This document shows positions 8,423 to 31,929 of a DNA stretch of 64,000 bases, piece by piece. Position 1 is the first letter of the stretch; each line of letters begins with the position of its first letter. Below the pieces are notes generated by a model that was given only the letters and a program-made list of their open reading frames with translations, was not told the DNA's origin and ran no database searches. Source of the DNA: the human T2T-CHM13v2.0 reference genome, Homo sapiens. A program made the translations under genes and the position numbers. The stretch lies in the NCBI RefSeq assembly GCF_009914755.1, contig NC_060925.1; one strand, given 5' to 3'.

Positions 8423-10365
8423 TAGGACAGGAAAGTACAGGAGTGGGAGGGTCAGGCACTCTGGCCCATGTGCCCAAGCACACACTTGGATGTTGGCACT
8501 TTTCAGGTGTCCAGGTGTTGCCTCTTGTCCCAGTGGACACTCTGGGAAGGACAATAGACAGGGTCGTTGACATCTGGCCACGGTGCGGCTGGCAGTTTTA
8601 ATGCCATAGAATATGTGATGGAGACAGATGCATGTCAATAACATAATAAAGATATTTTTCCATCCACAAATGTCTGATATTGGAATTACTATTCTTCTGT
8701 TTTCTGTTCTGCTATAACCTGCTTAACTCTTCAAGAAAGCCAGAGTATCTTGTTTGAACAGTTGGCCACACGCTCGCATGATAACACAATTCCATTAAAA
8801 CATTCATACCTTCAGCAGAAAGGCACCCCGCCAAATGCTCTATGTGTTGTATTAAGCCATAAGCAGAATTAAAGTGCGGAATCCCAGCCTTTCCAAATAG
8901 TGCAGGAATTGCGTGGGGGGCTGCAGGCTGGGGAGGAGCAGGCAACTGCACTGTTAAACCCCAGGTCCAAATCCTGCAGCCACCCCAGCCGCTTGAAGCG
9001 GGGTATCCCCTGGGATCAAACCGTTAGTCCATCAAACACTGCCTTAGTGCAAAGCCCTGTCCCTGGCCGAGGCTTCTCCCCTCCCCTCTGGGCAGTCCTC
9101 AGCTGAGCAGAGCAGGTGCCCTTGTCCTTTCAGCCCCCAGGTATTTGCAGGTCCTGGACTGACAGGCTTTGCCTGAAGCCATGTGGGTTTCAGAAAGGCT
9201 CTTTCCTGCCGATTTACACTGTGACTTCACAAATAAGCTATTTTCATGGTCATTGATCTTGTCGGTGGTCCCTCACATTTCCCCAGATCATCTCTAAGCA
9301 AACTCTGAAGTGGGTCAGCAAAGCAGCTCCCCCCAGGGAGGGCAGCCTGGAGCTGCTGCAGCTCCCACCACCTGACCTTGGAGGTATGCACCTCACTTGG
9401 GCTATTCTGACCTCAGATTCCTCCTCTTCGGTAATTGGGGTATAGCGGGGATAGATACCTCTTGATTCATGTTAAAACAATGTAATCCTTTTGCAATGTG
9501 ATGAGCTGCCCCTGCTGCATTTTGTCAGATCAGAGTTTTGCAACAAGGACTCTCTTAAAGTGAGATGCACTTGTCACTGCAGCTGGATCTTTCTGTCCGA
9601 GCAGGAGGAGCAGCGTGAAGGTGAAACTGAAGGGAAGAAGAACCCACACTCAAGGCATTCTGAGCTCTGTGGTAACCAGAAGCCCTGGGTGACTGGGGTG
9701 CTTGAGGGAGATGTAGGCTGCTAACTCCTTCCACTTTGGTGTCTGTACAGAGGGAGGGACCTTTTCCAAGGGAACAATGCCTTTATGTTCTGGAAGAGTT
9801 CTGTACTGAGCCCATAGGGTATCCTTAGGCCTCGGAGTCAGGGGCCTACACATGCTAAACTCCAGCTGCTCTTTGAGTCTAGACACTCGCTCCAGCTCCA
9901 ACTGCTTCTGATTCTACAGCTCGTTCGCACTTTTTCCTGGTTGCCCTGGGTTAGCCATTGGGATAGACAGATGCTGAGGGCATAGGAGCACTCACGGGTT
10001 TCTACTCTGGATCCTTCCATAGCATATTTAATCAAGACATTTTTGCAAGAATAGATGAATTGGGAGGCAGTATAGTAAAGCAATGACAATGTGAATTGTA
10101 GCAATGGTCAGGCCACCCCTGGCTGTGCCATCTTGGGCAGGCCCTGTGACCAGTGTCCACAGGAGAGATTGTTGTGGACCAGGCCTGGAAGTGGCATGCA
10201 TCATTTATGCCACTTCCCACTGGGCAGAAGTGAGTCACAAGGCCCCACTAGATTGCGGAGAGGCTGGAAAATACAGTTTAAAAATGTGCCCAGGAAGAGG
10301 AGGAGGAAACCACATTGCTGAGCATCTGCATAACGGGGTGCCTGGGGCTGGCTGGGCAATAGACC

Positions 10366-11420
10366 ATGCCCCCTCCCCTCACAAGGCCCCTCCTACCCAC
10401 CAAGGCTCCTTCCCACAGAGGCCCCTCCCACACACTGAGGCCCCTCCCACCCATGGAGGCTCCTCCCACACACCGAGGCTCTTCCCACATACTGAGGCCC
10501 CTGTAACACATCAAATCTCCTCCCCCATGCCAAGGCTCCTCCCCACACAGTGAGGCACCACCCACACACCGAGTCCCCTCCCACACACTAAGTCCCCTTC
10601 CCAACACGCAGGCTCCTCCCACATGCTGAAGCCTCTCCCACACATTGAGGTATCTCCCACACACTGAGGCTTCCTTCAGCACATCAAAGCCCTGTCCACA
10701 TACCAATGCCTCTCCCCCAACACAGAGGACTCTCCCACACACTGAGGCCCTTCTCACACACACAAGTCCCACTCACACAGAGGCCCCTCCCACACCCTGA
10801 GGCCCCCCCACACACACTGAAGCCCCTCCCACACACTGAGGCCTCTCCCACACACAAGTCCCTCCCATATTGAGACCCCTCCCACATACTGAGACCTCCA
10901 GTGCATCAAAACTCTCCCCATACCGAGGCCCCTCCCATACACTGAGACTCCTCCCACACACTGAAGCCCCTCCCACACATTGAGGCCTCCTTCAACACAT
11001 CAAAACCCTGCCCATATACCAGTACCCCTCCCCACACACAGTCCCACACATTGATTACCCTCCCACATACTGAGGCCTCTAACATGTCAAAGCCCTGCCC
11101 ACACGCCAAGGCTCCTCCCTACACACAGAGGCTCTTCCCACACACTGAGCCCCTTGCCACACACAGAGGCTCCTCCCACACATTGAGGCTCCTCCCCACA
11201 CACTGCGCCTCCTCCCCATACACTGAGCCCCCTCCCTCAGGCGGAGGCTCTTCCGACACAGAGGCTCCTCTCCACACACGGAGGCTCCTCCCACACACTG
11301 AACCCCCTCCCCACGCGTGGAGGCTCCTCCTACACACTGAGCCACTTCCCAAGCACTGAGGCCTCATTCAATACATCAAAGTCCCGCTCACATGCCAAAG
11401 CCCCTCCCACACATTGACCT
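10366..11420. repeat. C-rich minisatellite, ~19-bp unit CCCACACACTGAGGCCCCT, degenerate
   Basis: Roughly 50 recurring variants of cacactgaggcccctccca over about 1.05 kb, with periodic acatcaaa-containing variant units. Confidence 0.95.
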
Positions 11421-13416
11421 GCCTCTCTTCCTGAGAAGTCCCTCCTGAGGAAAAGGCTTGAACACTTAAAAGAACAAGGAGGTCCGTTCTCTTTTCTGTA
11501 TAGCTTTTGTTCCTCTCTCTGTGCTCAGGGCTGCCAGAACTGGTGCAGAGTGTAGGGCCATAGGAAATATCCCTCACTATTTCTCCCCACCATGCTCTAT
11601 CTCTGCCACTATTTTTAAAATGCTCTTTTAAAGGGTTTGTCAACAGTTATCCCCCGTTTGTCTCTGCCCTGATTTATATTTCTAGTGACTATTAATTGCC
11701 TACCAAATGAAGGCTCAGCATTTGTAATTAGGCTGGCAAATTCTACCTGACATCTTCGGCTCTGTGTTGGGGCAGGAAGGGAGCATGTGTTAATGGTGTT
11801 GAACTAAGCCACACCCCTCCCCCAGCCCGCTGATTAACCCCAGGTTCACTAATCAATGAAGTCTAACTGATTCTCTTTGCATTTACATCCTGCCTTGACT
11901 CTTAGCCAAGGGCTGAGGGCTTTGGTTCCAAAATGCTTTCTATGCCCAGAGAGGATGCCTCTCTGCCTTGTTCCTGCAGAAGGAACTCTCACCCTGAATG
12001 GGTAGGGTGGGGGTTCCGTAAAGAGCTAGAGGGAGAAGGGCACTTGCGGAGTAGCCAAGCTGCAGAGAGCTCCCTGTAGCTGTTCTGGAGAATGAAGCCC
12101 TCCTCAGCCTCCTTTATAAAAAGTCTGCCATAATTCAGCTGAACACAACATGGTACCAAGAAGCCACAACCTCAGGGATTTCCTTGGTTTTCTGTTCTGT
12201 TAATCTTTTCAAAACACGATTGGATTGGAAGCATCCATTCTCAGCCACAGCAGGTTGCTTGGCAGTGGCCGTGGAGGAGCTGTCCAGGATGCTGGCTGTG
12301 TGAACCAGGGAACAGCCCAGGATTCATGTATACTTATTGGCACAATTGGTGCCCTAAGTGAGGAACACCAGTACCAACATCCCAGGGTGTCTTCATGACC
12401 AAGGCGAAGCATCTCTGTGCCCCTCTGTGGTCATTGCTTCCAAATACATGAAAGGACAAATGATGATATGGGTTCTGCCTTGCCCACAGCAGGTGCTCAA
12501 TGACTACACTCAGAAAAATGGCTGCTAATAACAATTCAAAAGAGTTATATATCAGTCACGAATATCTATGCATGAAATAACACAGGAACCACCTTTATAA
12601 AGCAGATACTGCAAAAGAAACCAGGAAATGCAGAGAAAACCACTAATAATGGGAAAATTTAACATACCACATTCAGCACAAGGCAGATGAAGTGGAAAAA
12701 AATAACAATGGAATCAAGAAGATAGGTATTATGGAGATATAGATATCTTTATGTATACATTTATGCCACAATAATATAGAATATACTTTCTTCTCAGGTA
12801 TACATGGAGCATTTACAAACAGTTATATATTAGCTCACAAAGAAAATTTCAGTAAGTTCTATAAGGTAGAAATATTATAAACAATACTTTCTAACCACGG
12901 TGCACTAAAACTGGACATTATTAACAAAAAGATGAAAATACCCTATCATCTGGAAATGAAAAACAACCTATTAACTCTTGGATGAAATGGGGAAAGCAAA
13001 TTAAAAATTAAAAAATAATCATAATGAAAACACTACCTACCAGAATGTATGAGATATATTTAAAGCAGTGATTGGAAGGAAATTCATATCCCTAAATGCT
13101 TTTATTAATAAAAACACAAAAATGCAAATAAGTGAACTAAGTTCTTACCCCAAAAGCTAGGTAAAGAAACACAAGGTAAACCAAAAGAAAGCACAAGAAA
13201 CATAATAGTAAGGATAAAAGCAGAAAATAGTAAGATAGAGAATGAAAGAACAGTAGACCTGATTAGCAATCCCTAAATATGGGTTTTTAAAACATTAACA
13301 AATGAATGAAACCCTTGCTAGCATAAAAAATGGAGAGAAAGCACAAATATATGAAATAAATGACAAAAGAGACATAACCATTGACATAGAAGACATTTTT
13401 AAAAATTATGAGATTA

Positions 13417-22479: not shown

Positions 22480-24005
22480 CTGTGCACAAAGTTGTACATA
22501 AAATACTTTCTGTGTGGTTTCTAACAGGGAAACACTGTAGAAAGCCTAAATGTCCATCAGAAAAACCAAGGTTAAATAATGTATGCCACACAGAGATTGG
22601 AAAATACCATGCAGCAATGAACAAGAATGAGCTATATCTGTAAGTGCTGGCATTGAGTGAGGTCCATGACATATTGCTAAGTGAAAAAAATCAAGCCATA
22701 CAAGAGCACATTAAAAACTACACGTCTGAATATCCAGAAACTACAGTGAACTCAAACAAATTAGCAAGAAGAAAACAAACAATCCCATCAGAAAGTAGGC
22801 TAAGGACATGAATAGAGAGTTCTCAAAAGAATATATAGAAATGGCCAACAAACATATGAAAAAATGCTCAGCATCACTAATGATCAGGGAAATGCAAATC
22901 AAAACCACACTGTGATACCACTTTACTTCTGCAAGAATGGTCATAATCAAAAAAATCAAACAATAATAGATGTTGGCGTGGATGCAGTGAAAACGGAACA
23001 CATCTGCACTGCTGGTGGGAATGTAAACTAGTACAACCACTATGGAAAGCAGTGTGGAGATTCCTCAAAGAACTAAAAGTAGAACTACCATTTGATCCAG
23101 CAGTCCCACTACTGGGTATCTACCCAGAGGAAAGGAAGTCATTGTACAAAAACTTTCACACTCATGTTTATAGCAGCACAATTTGCAAATGCAAAAAGGT
23201 GGAACCAACCCAAATGTCCATCAGTCAACGAGTGGATAAAGAAACTGTGGTGTGTATGTATTTTGGCACCATCTTTTTACACCTAGTAAGAAGGAATGAA
23301 TTAATGGCATTTGCAGTAACCTGGAGGGGATTGGAGATTATTTTTCTAAGTGAAGTAACTCAGGAATGGAAAACAAACATCGTATGTTCTCACTGATGAG
23401 TGGGAGCTAAGCTATGAGGATGCAAAGGCATAAGGATGACACAGTGGATTTTGCGGACTCGGGGGAAAGGGTGAGAAGGGGTGAGGGATGAAAGACTACA
23501 AATTGGGTTCAGTGTATACTGCCTGGGAGATGGGTGCCCCAAAATCTCACAAATCATCACTAAAGAACTTACTCACGTAACCAAATACCACCTGTTCCCC
23601 CAAAACCTATGGAAATAAAAAATTTTTTAAAAATCAAGCCACAAAAGAGCACATTAAAAACTACACATATGAATAGATATATGTCTATGTACACATATCT
23701 CTGTATGTGTAATACATGTGTGTATTACACGTAGCATATATAATGATGTACTATATGTAAATGATTCTTATACGTGTGTAGAAAATAATCATGACGTAAC
23801 ATAAATGTACATATAACTTTTTTAAACACACAGAAAGCTCTGGAAAAATAGGCAGAGTTAGTTGACTGTGATTACTTCTGAAAAAGAGACTGAGGTGAGT
23901 AGCGGAGGGGAATTTCAATTTTTACTTGTTATGCTTCCAACTGTTTGAGTGTTGTTCCTTTTTTAACAAGAAGTATATTACTTTTGTAATTTAAAAAAAT
24001 AGAAA
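22480..24005 (+). mobile_element. L1ME-type 3' relic split by the L1PB insertion
   Basis: aaagcctaaatgtccatcag...gacatattgctaagtgaaaaaaatcaag on the left; ...tattacttttgtaatttaaaaaaa on the right. Confidence 0.6.
22733..23628 (+). mobile_element. L1PB 5'-truncated element (~0.9 kb, ORF2 C-terminus plus 3'UTR)
   Basis: ORF 23052-23396 [24 protein letters not shown] is an ORF2p C-terminal remnant; L1PB 3'UTR (aaatcatcactaaagaacttactc...ggaaataaaa); 47-bp flanking direct repeat. Confidence 0.95.
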
Positions 24006-29728: not shown

Positions 29729-30646
29729 GTATGTGTGAAGAAAACATACATTCTTAGAGATCTGTTTGCCTGCTCTCACAGAGCCCCTGACCAGTGATGG
29801 GACATTCCAGTTAGCAGGAGAGAGGGTGTGGTGGAGCACAGCGTGGCTGGAGGAAATCACTCTAAACGGGCTTCAGTGCACTAACAGATTTTGGAGTGAT
29901 TTATATGAAAACAGTTTAAAGCATTTACTAGCTGTAGGAACTAATTTCCAATAAATCAGACAGGATTCCCTTGGGAACCAGAAATAAATGAGGGCAAAAG
30001 AAATTGCTAAGGGTTGTTGAGCAATAAAGAGATGGGTTCTAGATACCTTAAAATGATATTTAAATGGACAAAGTTGATTTAGCTGTCTTCTCTCATGTCT
30101 AGGAGTAAGATTGAAGTCCATAGCATGTCATTATGACCAGGAATTATTCACCAGGAGACCTGCAGCATTTCATGCACATTCCGCTGAATGGCAATTTTAA
30201 TATTCCAGTTTCAGTCCTCGGTTGTAATGAAAAGGCATTAATTGCTTGGTTCCTTGCAAAGTCTGTAACAAAAGTGTTCCTAGAACAAGTTCAAATTTGG
30301 CACACAAGGCAGAACTTTTATGATCTAACGTTAGTCATTTTTTTTCTAATTAAGAATTTTTAATGCATATATATTTTGTGATCTTCAAGTTCTCAAGTAA
30401 TTATTTCACACACACGGGTCATCTGGCATCGTGCCATGTGTCTTGGAAAATGCAGAAAAATAGAATATCACTGTGGTCCTTGCACTCTGGAAGTGTACAT
30501 TTCATAGGAAGATGAAGCTGTGACACCCTCTGAGAACACTGAAGCCACACGTGTGTGTCAAATGTGAGGATGGAAGGACCAGCAGCCAGGAGATGCTGAC
30601 ATTGCTTCAGGGAGGTGGAGGCCAAACAAGGGGCTCTGAAGCACTG

Positions 30647-30833
30647 GCTAGACTTGGCCAGAGTGGGGAGACAGCTCATTGTCCCGAATGAGCAAGACCT
30701 GTGGCCAGAGCTGGATGCAGTTTCCAAAGACCAGGAGATGCTCTCTCAGCTGCCCACACAGGGTTCGGGAGACATCTGTTCTGTTAAACATGGACACTTC
30801 TTGTGACCAGGACGTAGCATCATTTCCTAAAGA
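30647..30833 (+). repeat. Local duplication, copy 1 (187 bp, probable donor)
   Basis: 183/187 identical to 31232-31418. Confidence 0.97.
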
Positions 30834-30960
30834 GGTGGGGGCTCAGAGCTCCCTGGGACCAGGGGGATGACTGTTCTCTGTTTTAGGAACCTGCGTGTGG
30901 GATGTTCTTGGGAGATGTGAAGAGAGAGGAAGGAAAGGACACTCAAATTATTGTCCCCCA

Positions 30961-30961
<1 letters not shown>

Positions 30962-31007
<46 letters not shown>
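30962..31007. repeat. Perfect (CA)23 microsatellite
   Basis: Uninterrupted CA run. Confidence 0.97.
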
Positions 31008-31010
<3 letters not shown>

Positions 31011-31034
31011 TCTACTTGCTTATTTATCTGCTCA

Positions 31035-31172
31035 TTTCATTGACGCTTCCCAACAACTGGGGTATTTTTCATTCCCTTTTCCTAGTTGAGAAGAAAGACT
31101 CCGAGAGGGTGGAATCCTACCCTAGGTCATTTAGCTGGAAGGTTGCAGAGTGGTCTTCAAATCCAGGTCATG
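31035..31172 (-). mobile_element. MIR
   Basis: cattcccttttcctagttgagaagaaagactccgagagggt...ggtcatttagctggaaggttgcagag...ttcaaatccaggtc. Confidence 0.65.
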
Positions 31173-31231
31173 CCCCTTTTCGGGACACTGGAACATTCCA
31201 ATCAACAGCAGGGGAAGCCGTATCTTCCCCT

Positions 31232-31418
31232 GCTAGACTTGGCCAGAGTGGGGAGACAGCTCATTGTCCCGAATGAGCAAGACCTGTGGCCAGAGCTGGA
31301 TGCAGTTTCCAAAGACCGGGAGATGCTCTCTCAGCTGCCCACACAGGGTTCGGGAGACATCTGTTCTGTTAGACATGGACATTTCTTGTGACCAGGACGG
31401 AGCATCATTTCCTAAAGA
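31232..31418 (+). repeat. Local duplication, copy 2 (187 bp, probable insertion)
   Basis: 183/187 identical to 30647-30833; bracketed by TCCCCTGCTAGA at 31226-31237 and 31419-31430. Confidence 0.97.
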
Positions 31419-31929
31419 TCCCCTGCTAGAACTTACTGATAGTAAGTTCTAGGATATTGGGGTGACCCAAACCCAGGAATCCAGTTTCTGCCCTTGCCTT
31501 TCTCTTGCATAAAAGGTTGAATTGTGCCTCATTCAAGTGCATGAACTTCCCCAGGCCCTGCTCAGTGCATCTAGTAGAGCCAGGATGTCCCAGCTGACCC
31601 TGCATTTGGAGGCCTGGAGGTGGGCTCACCACAGTTTGCAGCTTAGGTGTGCCCCCACTCCCCTACCCCCGACCTGTCACTGGTCCTGACCCCAACTCTT
31701 CTGGAATCACGTGGTGTGAGTGGTACAGGAGGCCTCTGCTTGCAAAGCTGGGTGCTGACCTGTGTGTGCCCCTGATGACTCCTGTGGACCGTGTTTGCTG
31801 CTGCACTTCAGAAGGTGTCAGGAATGTGTCCCTTCCATGTCTCAGCAGCCCTGGGTGCTCCCGACATCACCCTGAGAAACCCCCAGGACCTCTCTGGGTC
31901 TCATTTCCAGAGGGTGTCTCCATCACTCA

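What the first reader, a model, noticed from the sequence alone, without database searches (positions are those of the whole stretch)
30647..31452. 187-bp local duplication inserted at a double-hairpin site with a 12-bp target duplication
Seen: 30647-30833 recurs at 31232-31418 (4 substitutions, no indels, 585-bp offset). Copy 2 is bracketed by TCCCCTGCTAGA (31226-31237, 31419-31430), whose last 6 nt GCTAGA are shared with the start of copy 1. The left junction lies in a perfect 11-bp hairpin AGCAGGGGAAG-ccgtat-CTTCCCCTGCT (31207-31234). The right junction runs into a perfect 12-bp hairpin CTAGAACTTACT-gat-AGTAAGTTCTAG (31426-31452). No poly-A. Removing the insert leaves two abutting hairpins. 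Inference: a recent microhomology-mediated templated insertion (fork stalling/template switch or polymerase-theta-type repair) at a structure-prone site rather than retrotransposition. About 2% divergence suggests great-ape age.
Basis: partly seen in the sequence, partly recalled or inferred. Interest (0 to 1): 0.75.

Follow-up and report, generated by a model that had tools for sequence, protein, structure and literature searches.

The report
DNA-repair scar with two hairpins
A 187-letter piece of a human CAMTA1 intron occurs twice, 585 letters apart, with the second copy wedged between two perfect hairpins; it is likely an ordinary scar left when a broken chromosome was patched with nearby DNA in an ape ancestor, and the hairpins were likely made by the repair itself.

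Summary
Observation confirmed: 30647-30833 recurs at 31232-31418 (4 substitutions), with a 12-nt repeat and two perfect hairpins at the junctions. No third close copy was found in the genome. The hairpins are 2 of only 4 complex perfect hairpins with arms of 11 bp or more in 264 kb, so their place is not chance. The insertion fits the published class of repair-mediated duplications (Pace 2009; 824 in human). Each hairpin parses exactly as snap-back synthesis from one broken end (3-nt primer plus 8 nt; 6-nt primer plus 6 nt), and the 12-nt 'target duplication' equals 7+2+3 nt filled in around a 2-nt pairing of those two new ends. So hairpins and repeat are likely products of one multi-step repair (0.55), or the hairpins came from an earlier switch at the same site (0.3 with its variant), rather than old features (0.07). 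The readings predict different empty sites: about 208 nt without hairpins, or 193 nt with both. No primate outgroup was available. Age is likely younger than the macaque split. No sign of function. New member of a known kind.

The parts
30647..30833 (+). Donor copy (187 nt), inferred to be the original
   Evidence: no repeat or hairpin at its ends. Direction is inferred from the scars at the other copy.
30647..30652 (+). 6-nt microhomology GCTAGA shared by donor start and the end of the 12-nt repeat
   Evidence: the only match of 6 nt or more to that end within 2 kb either side, both strands (1 of 2 within 5 kb)
30962..31008 (+). (CA)23 microsatellite between the copies (context only)
31029..31171 (+). 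Old dispersed SINE fragment ending about 55 nt left of the junction; MIR-like by recall (context; does not span the junction)
   Evidence: E 5e-10 to a profile built from 48 other copies in 264 kb, this site excluded
31207..31234 (.). Left hairpin, 11-bp perfect stem, 6-nt loop. Parsed as primer 31224-31226 folding on 31215-31217 and 8 nt (31227-31234) copied from 31207-31214
   Evidence: the parse is inference
31226..31237 (+). First copy of the 12-nt repeat = 7 nt + 2-nt overlap (CT) + 3 nt
31232..31418 (+). Acceptor copy (187 nt, of which 181 beyond the microhomology)
31418..31419 (+). Return junction, no microhomology (apparent blunt join)
   Evidence: 0 nt; longest junction-spanning word within about 700 nt is 6 nt, a chance-level match
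31419..31430 (+). Second copy of the 12-nt repeat
31426..31452 (.). Right hairpin, 12-bp perfect stem, 3-nt loop. Parsed as bottom-strand primer over 31432-31437 folding on 31441-31446 and 6 nt (31426-31431) copied from 31447-31452
   Evidence: one search shows the 6-bp seed folds alone (-3.1 kcal/mol, z -3.0); the parse is inference

Best explanation
The 187-nt copy at 31232-31418 sits between two perfect hairpins and a 12-nt repeat, and is likely the scar of one multi-step repair of a double-strand break in an ape germ line, in which the hairpins and the repeat were likely synthesised during the repair. Inferred order: (1) break near 31226/31432; (2) the left 3' end folds back through a 3-nt primer and copies 8 nt, creating the left hairpin; (3) the right 3' end (bottom strand) folds back through a 3-6-nt primer and copies 6 nt, creating the right hairpin; (4) the two new ends pair by 2 nt (CT), the top strand adds 3 nt and the bottom strand 7 nt, giving a 12-bp duplex that comes apart, so that each end keeps one copy of the 12-mer; (5) the left end, now ending in GCTAGA and no longer matching its own allele, invades the one nearby site with those 6 nt, 585 nt upstream, and copies 181 nt; (6) the ends are joined bluntly. 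[quoted passage not shown] A stalled fork making the same switches would leave the same letters. Shown: the letters and their exact match to these templates. Inferred: the break, the order, the single event, the enzymes. No function is expected. Confidence in the class (repair-mediated local duplication) is about 0.9; in this single-event version 0.55.
For: Every junction base is accounted for by a template within 30 nt or by the donor. Hairpins of this length are rare and sit at both junctions. Snap-back repair makes the insertion part of a new, longer inverted repeat, uses short primers within 30 nt of the break, works on both sides, and has a 'trans' form with annealing, limited synthesis and dissociation (PMC5728401). 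In great-ape template switches, stable hairpins rise strikingly in the descendant and less in the ancestor (PMC7954356). In one of 5 human-specific repair-mediated duplications that I read in full in Pace's Figure S1 (chr6, hg18 14395452), the 20-nt filler contains an 8-nt reverse complement of the adjacent flank and so forms a hairpin absent in chimp and rhesus (read by eye, not computed). All 23 stem pairs are intact, which fits an age like that of the copy (P 0.61 at 1.07% per lineage; 0.004 at 12%). The predicted pre-break site folds weakly (-4.0 kcal/mol against -20.5 for the 193-nt empty site), so it needs no special ancestor.
Against: No outgroup sequence was seen; the parse is fitted after the fact. 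It needs five synthesis or joining steps. The return junction has no microhomology. A 181-nt tract from 585 nt away exceeds the 'limited synthesis' of SD-MMEJ as described. The shared CTT at 31224-31226 and 31432-31434 that fixes the 208-nt figure is weak (3 nt), so the exact break is uncertain. True target duplications of 4-21 nt occur in 6 of 39 resolved proximal duplications (Pace Table 1), so the 12-mer need not be newly made. Of 7 other local duplications in 264 kb, none has a hairpin with arm >=9 wholly within 45 nt of an end, 3 have arms of 7-8, and one has a 10-bp hairpin starting 32 nt away in AT-rich sequence: the signature is not general in this small sample. A repeat profile could not tell the two empty sites apart.
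Confidence: 0.55

Rival explanations
1. Two events at one site: an earlier snap-back or template-switch event made the overlapping hairpin pair; that pair later stalled or broke, and the 181 nt were copied in through the 6-nt microhomology with a true 12-nt target duplication.
For: Needs only two switches for the insertion; gives the 6-nt microhomology and the 12-mer directly. New hairpins can stall forks and break (PMC7954356 passages). Microhomology plus target duplication is a recorded type, 5 of 39.
Against: Needs two rare events at one site within a short time. The implied nicks (31225|31226 and 31237|31238) lie inside the stems, not at loop tips or stem bases (sequence). 12-nt complementary overhangs would be expected simply to re-anneal (inference).
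Confidence: 0.22
2. A 585-nt tandem duplication through the 6-nt microhomology, followed by a blunt 392-nt deletion in the second unit that removed 30834-31225 and left the second 12-mer; the hairpins predate both steps.
For: Reproduces the present letters exactly (sequence arithmetic). The deletion would end at the inner end of the left hairpin's right arm.
Against: Three events at one site; the deletion has no microhomology; it ends only 12 nt from the duplication junction.
Confidence: 0.08
3. One reading: two old or chance hairpins formed a fragile site, into which the copy was inserted.
For: Fragility could enrich events at such sites; a smaller pre-event rise in structure is seen in great-ape switches.
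Against: Overlap of two such hairpins is about 1e-4 given the first; 0 abutting pairs among 27 complex hairpins with arm >=9 in 264 kb. Perfect stems are unlikely to be old unless re-corrected. The flanks holding the hairpins have no other close copy, so they are not the ends of a young element.
Confidence: 0.07
4. L1-mediated retrocopy of a CAMTA1 pre-mRNA fragment, or a small transposon.
For: 12 nt is a typical target-duplication length; the locus is in a transcribed intron.
Against: No poly-A; neither predicted nick resembles the TTTT/AA L1 site (motif recalled). Two copies only. None of 39 proximal duplications examined by Pace had a poly-A tail. It leaves the hairpins and the 6-nt microhomology unexplained.
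Confidence: 0.03
5. Assembly artefact or a rearrangement private to the sequenced cell line.
For: Only one assembly was seen.
Against: Four substitutions between the copies, one of them a CpG-type change, point to millions of years; complex templated junctions are not what assembly errors look like (inference).
Confidence: 0.03

Closest known systems
Repair-mediated duplications (Pace, Sen, Batzer, Feschotte 2009, PMC2671141; main text parts 1-4 of 8, passages, Table S1 part 1 of 15 plus two searches, Figure S1 parts 1-2 of 24 seen) and the 'doublets' of Thomas et al. (seen only as cited there)
   Same: Short (mean 162, maximum 619 bp) non-tandem copy of a unique donor within 5 kb, no poly-A, microhomology 2-9 nt, filler or target duplication at junctions; 824 in human, continuous through primate evolution.
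   Different: Not found in their Table S1 by gene name or by estimated position (position from recalled offsets, weak). Their screen needed an interrupted annotated repeat. Their main text has 0 uses of hairpin, inverted or palindrome. Here both junctions carry long perfect hairpins.
Synthesis-dependent MMEJ, snap-back and trans forms (Khodaverdian et al. 2017, PMC5728401; part 1 of 7 and passages seen; Yu and McVey 2010, PMC2943611, listing only)
   Same: Short primers near the break, new longer inverted repeats, rounds of annealing and dissociation across the break, apparent blunt joins.
   Different: Defined at induced breaks in Drosophila with insertions of one to tens of bp; here the break is unknown and a 181-nt tract from 585 nt away is added.
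Short-range template switching, four-point model (Walker et al. 2021, PMC7954356, passages and one search of its event table seen; Loytynoja and Goldman 2017, PMC5453318, listing only)
   Same: [quoted passage not shown]
   Different: The model has two switches; this locus needs about five and includes a same-strand 181-nt copy. No chr1 row at the estimated position in their table (position from recalled offsets).

Membership tests
Repair-mediated duplication (Pace 2009) | Inserted copy of at least 50 bp, up to about 620 bp | tested here: met
   187 nt
Repair-mediated duplication (Pace 2009) | Donor within 5 kb and more than 50 bp from the acceptor | tested here: met
   398 nt between the copies
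Repair-mediated duplication (Pace 2009) | Only one other copy in the genome | tested here: met
   2 matches in the own genome (this search misses old repeats, as one search missed the SINE); nhmmer over 264 kb found only the two copies while the same method found the SINE family
Repair-mediated duplication (Pace 2009) | No poly-A/T; microhomology, filler, deletion or target duplication at the junctions | tested here: met
   6-nt microhomology, 12-nt repeat, no tail
Repair-mediated duplication (Pace 2009) | Empty orthologous site in an outgroup or a repeat consensus | not testable with these tools
   No primate genome held (no relatives); the nearby SINE ends at 31171 and does not span the junction
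SD-MMEJ (snap-back and trans) | Inserted bases templated within about 30 nt through short primer repeats, forming longer inverted repeats | tested here: met
   given the assumed break position
SD-MMEJ (snap-back and trans) | Limited synthesis only (one to tens of nt) | tested here: not met
   181-nt tract from 585 nt away; so it works like SD-MMEJ at the junctions but is not filed as a pure SD-MMEJ product
SD-MMEJ (snap-back and trans) | Known pre-break sequence and dependence on polymerase theta | not testable with these tools
   needs an outgroup and a cell assay
L1-mediated retrotransposition | 3' poly-A tail | tested here: not met
L1-mediated retrotransposition | TTTT/AA-like endonuclease site at one end of the target duplication | tested here: not met
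   motif recalled
Dispersed transposon (MITE, Helitron) | Further copies of the unit or of its ends | tested here: not met
   (close copies only)
Structured RNA (Rfam) | Match at the gathering score | tested here: not met
   0 of 6 weak matches in 30300-31800 reach gathering; stems of 11-12 bp fold separately and make no miRNA-length stem

The most novel reading that the evidence does not exclude
The 12-nt 'target site duplication' and both hairpins never existed before the break: this locus is a complete fossil of a germ-line repair in which both ends snapped back, paired, came apart and one then copied nearby DNA. Such false target duplications and new hairpins would be a recurrent, unnoticed polymerase-theta-type signature among the roughly one thousand primate repair-mediated duplications, readable from one genome and countable against ape assemblies.
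Probability: 0.3. Interest if true: 0.45.

Novelty: new member of a known kind. Interest (0 to 1): 0.22.

Why it matters
As a single locus it matters little: an intronic scar with no annotated element, one of hundreds. If the single-event reading holds, it is a neat teaching case that hairpins at breakpoints can be the result rather than the cause of a rearrangement, and that an apparent target duplication can be newly made. It also suggests a cheap genome-wide test of which repair pathway built primate local duplications. The two 98% copies could seed a 585-nt deletion by recombination (not tested).

Tried and rejected
Using a repeat consensus as a stand-in outgroup: the left flank holds a SINE but it ends at 31171; the right flank matched the profile only at E 0.48; the 2.8-bit gain for the 208-nt empty site came from poorly aligned padding columns, so it was discarded as uninformative. 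Search for a paralogous empty site: both flanks matched only themselves. Second example in the window: the 47-nt repeat at 22686/23629 beside hairpins at 23690-23730 proved to flank a dispersed repeat in AT-rich sequence, and the hairpin cluster 14.7 kb beyond the window's end is AT-rich low-complexity; neither counts. Templated explanation of the return junction: only 5-6-nt words, chance level. Helitron (hairpin plus CTAG): no A|T target and no copies (rule recalled). Rfam and RNA fold: nothing. Literature on this locus: a five-term search with CAMTA1 listed 3 papers, none about it by title or abstract; searches gave the classes cited and no listing on hairpins at repair-mediated duplications. 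Ape structural-variant tables (supplements of PMC10028934 and PMC8172381) and one file of PMC7954356 were not seen; they may list this insertion and fix its age.

Full report
Observation. Window 30647-30833 and 31232-31418 are 187-nt ungapped copies with four substitutions. A 12-nt exact repeat lies at 31226-31237 and 31419-31430, and its last 6 nt are the first 6 nt of the donor. Perfect hairpins lie at 31207-31234 (11 bp) and 31426-31452 (12 bp). There is no poly-A. The locus is intronic in CAMTA1, with no listed functional element (annotation supplied with the finding).

Is it chance? The window has 3 perfect hairpins with arm >=11 against 0.58 expected. In 264 kb around and including the window, 36 hits had arm >=11; 32 were low-complexity and dropped; 2 of the remaining 4 are at the two junctions. 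From the other two, the chance of one within 25 nt of both junctions is about 1e-7, and of a second abutting a first about 1e-4 (rough). The tie between hairpins and insertion is therefore real and needs a cause.

Copy number and context. The unit has two matches in the whole own genome, and each flank only itself. That search misses old repeats, since the left flank holds a SINE fragment at 31029-31171 that a profile from 48 other copies detects at E 5e-10 (MIR-like by recall). The same profile method found no family for the unit or the right flank. No Rfam family reaches its gathering score and the RNA fold gives two separate short stems.

Anatomy of the junctions. Left: the 3 nt at 31224-31226 can pair with 31215-31217, and the next 8 nt are the reverse complement of 31207-31214; the match then stops. 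Right, on the bottom strand: 31432-31437 can pair with 31441-31446, and 31426-31431 is the reverse complement of 31447-31452; the match then stops. The end of the left extension and the start of the right one overlap by 2 nt (CT). The 12-mer is 7 nt left of that overlap, the overlap, and 3 nt right of it: what a brief pairing of the two new ends, partly filled in from both sides, would leave on each end. The left end then finishes in GCTAGA, and the donor start is the only match of 6 nt or more within 2 kb on either strand. The return junction at 31418|31419 has no microhomology, and only chance-level words span it.

Mechanism. I favour one multi-step repair (0.55): two snap-backs, an aborted pairing across the break, invasion of the nearby donor for 181 nt, and a blunt join. 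The junction steps work like synthesis-dependent MMEJ, in which short primers within 30 nt of a break on either side fold back, the insertion becomes part of a new longer inverted repeat, and 'trans' rounds of annealing and dissociation occur (PMC5728401). In great-ape template switches the rise in hairpin stability is striking in descendants and smaller in ancestors (PMC7954356). In Pace's Figure S1 I read 5 human-specific cases in full; in one (chr6) the filler forms an 8-bp hairpin with the flank that chimp and rhesus lack, and in another (chr13) the filler looks like re-copied donor end (by eye). What is shown is the match of letters to templates; the break, the order, the single event and the enzymes are inferred. 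A stalled fork with the same switches cannot be told apart.

Against it. No outgroup was seen. The parse is post hoc and long. A 181-nt tract exceeds SD-MMEJ as described. The 3-nt repeat that sets the 208-nt figure is weak. True target duplications are known in this class (6 of 39). Among 7 other local duplications in 264 kb, none has an arm >=9 hairpin wholly within 45 nt of an end, 3 have arms of 7-8, and one has a 10-bp hairpin starting 32 nt away in AT-rich DNA.

Age. Divergence is 2.14% (95% interval 0.58-5.48%); at 3.3% per lineage, about the macaque split by recall, four or fewer differences have P 0.006. So it is likely younger than that split unless gene conversion has acted; human-specific is not excluded (Pace's human-specific cases average 0.89%). 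Intact stems agree with a similar age.

Comparison with what is known. It meets every feature of a repair-mediated duplication that I could test (PMC2671141). It was not found in their table by gene name or estimated position, nor in Walker's event table by estimated position; both positions rest on recalled coordinate offsets. Pace's main text does not mention hairpins or inverted repeats. My searches listed no paper on this locus; ape variant tables that I did not see may list it.

Verdict. A real, ordinary kind of event with an unusually legible scar. New member of a known kind; interest 0.22. One alignment to ape and monkey orthologues decides between a 208-nt and a 193-nt empty site.

Noticed in passing
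window 22686-22732 and 23629-23675: A 38-47-nt direct repeat (91%) flanks a 905-nt dispersed repeat (72% to a copy 13 kb beyond the window's end; L1-like with an A-rich 3' end by recall). It looks like an unusually long target duplication.
   Followed up: partly
window 23690-23730: Two overlapping perfect hairpins (8 and 10 bp) in AT-rich alternating sequence just right of that repeat.
   Followed up: partly
window 10187-10217 and 2118-2146: Isolated perfect hairpins of 11 bp and 10 bp with 9-nt loops, candidates for single short template switches.
   Followed up: no
window 10376-11390: About 1 kb of degenerate 19-nt tandem repeat that overlaps the RefSeq enhancer at 11227-11727.
   Followed up: no
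L005-L006 (window-relative 67784-68011 and 71794-72328): Two overlapping inverted local duplications (104 and 139 nt, 88-93%) about 4 kb apart, a possible two-step templated insertion.
   Followed up: no
L017-L018 region (window-relative -30658 to -29076) and L010 (115590-116290): Older low-copy direct local duplications of 155 nt (86%) and 78 nt (82%), likely further repair-mediated duplications.
   Followed up: no
window 31194-31203 and 31453-31464: The outer flanks can pair imperfectly (5 perfect bp) around the whole insertion in the RNA fold; probably chance.
   Followed up: no
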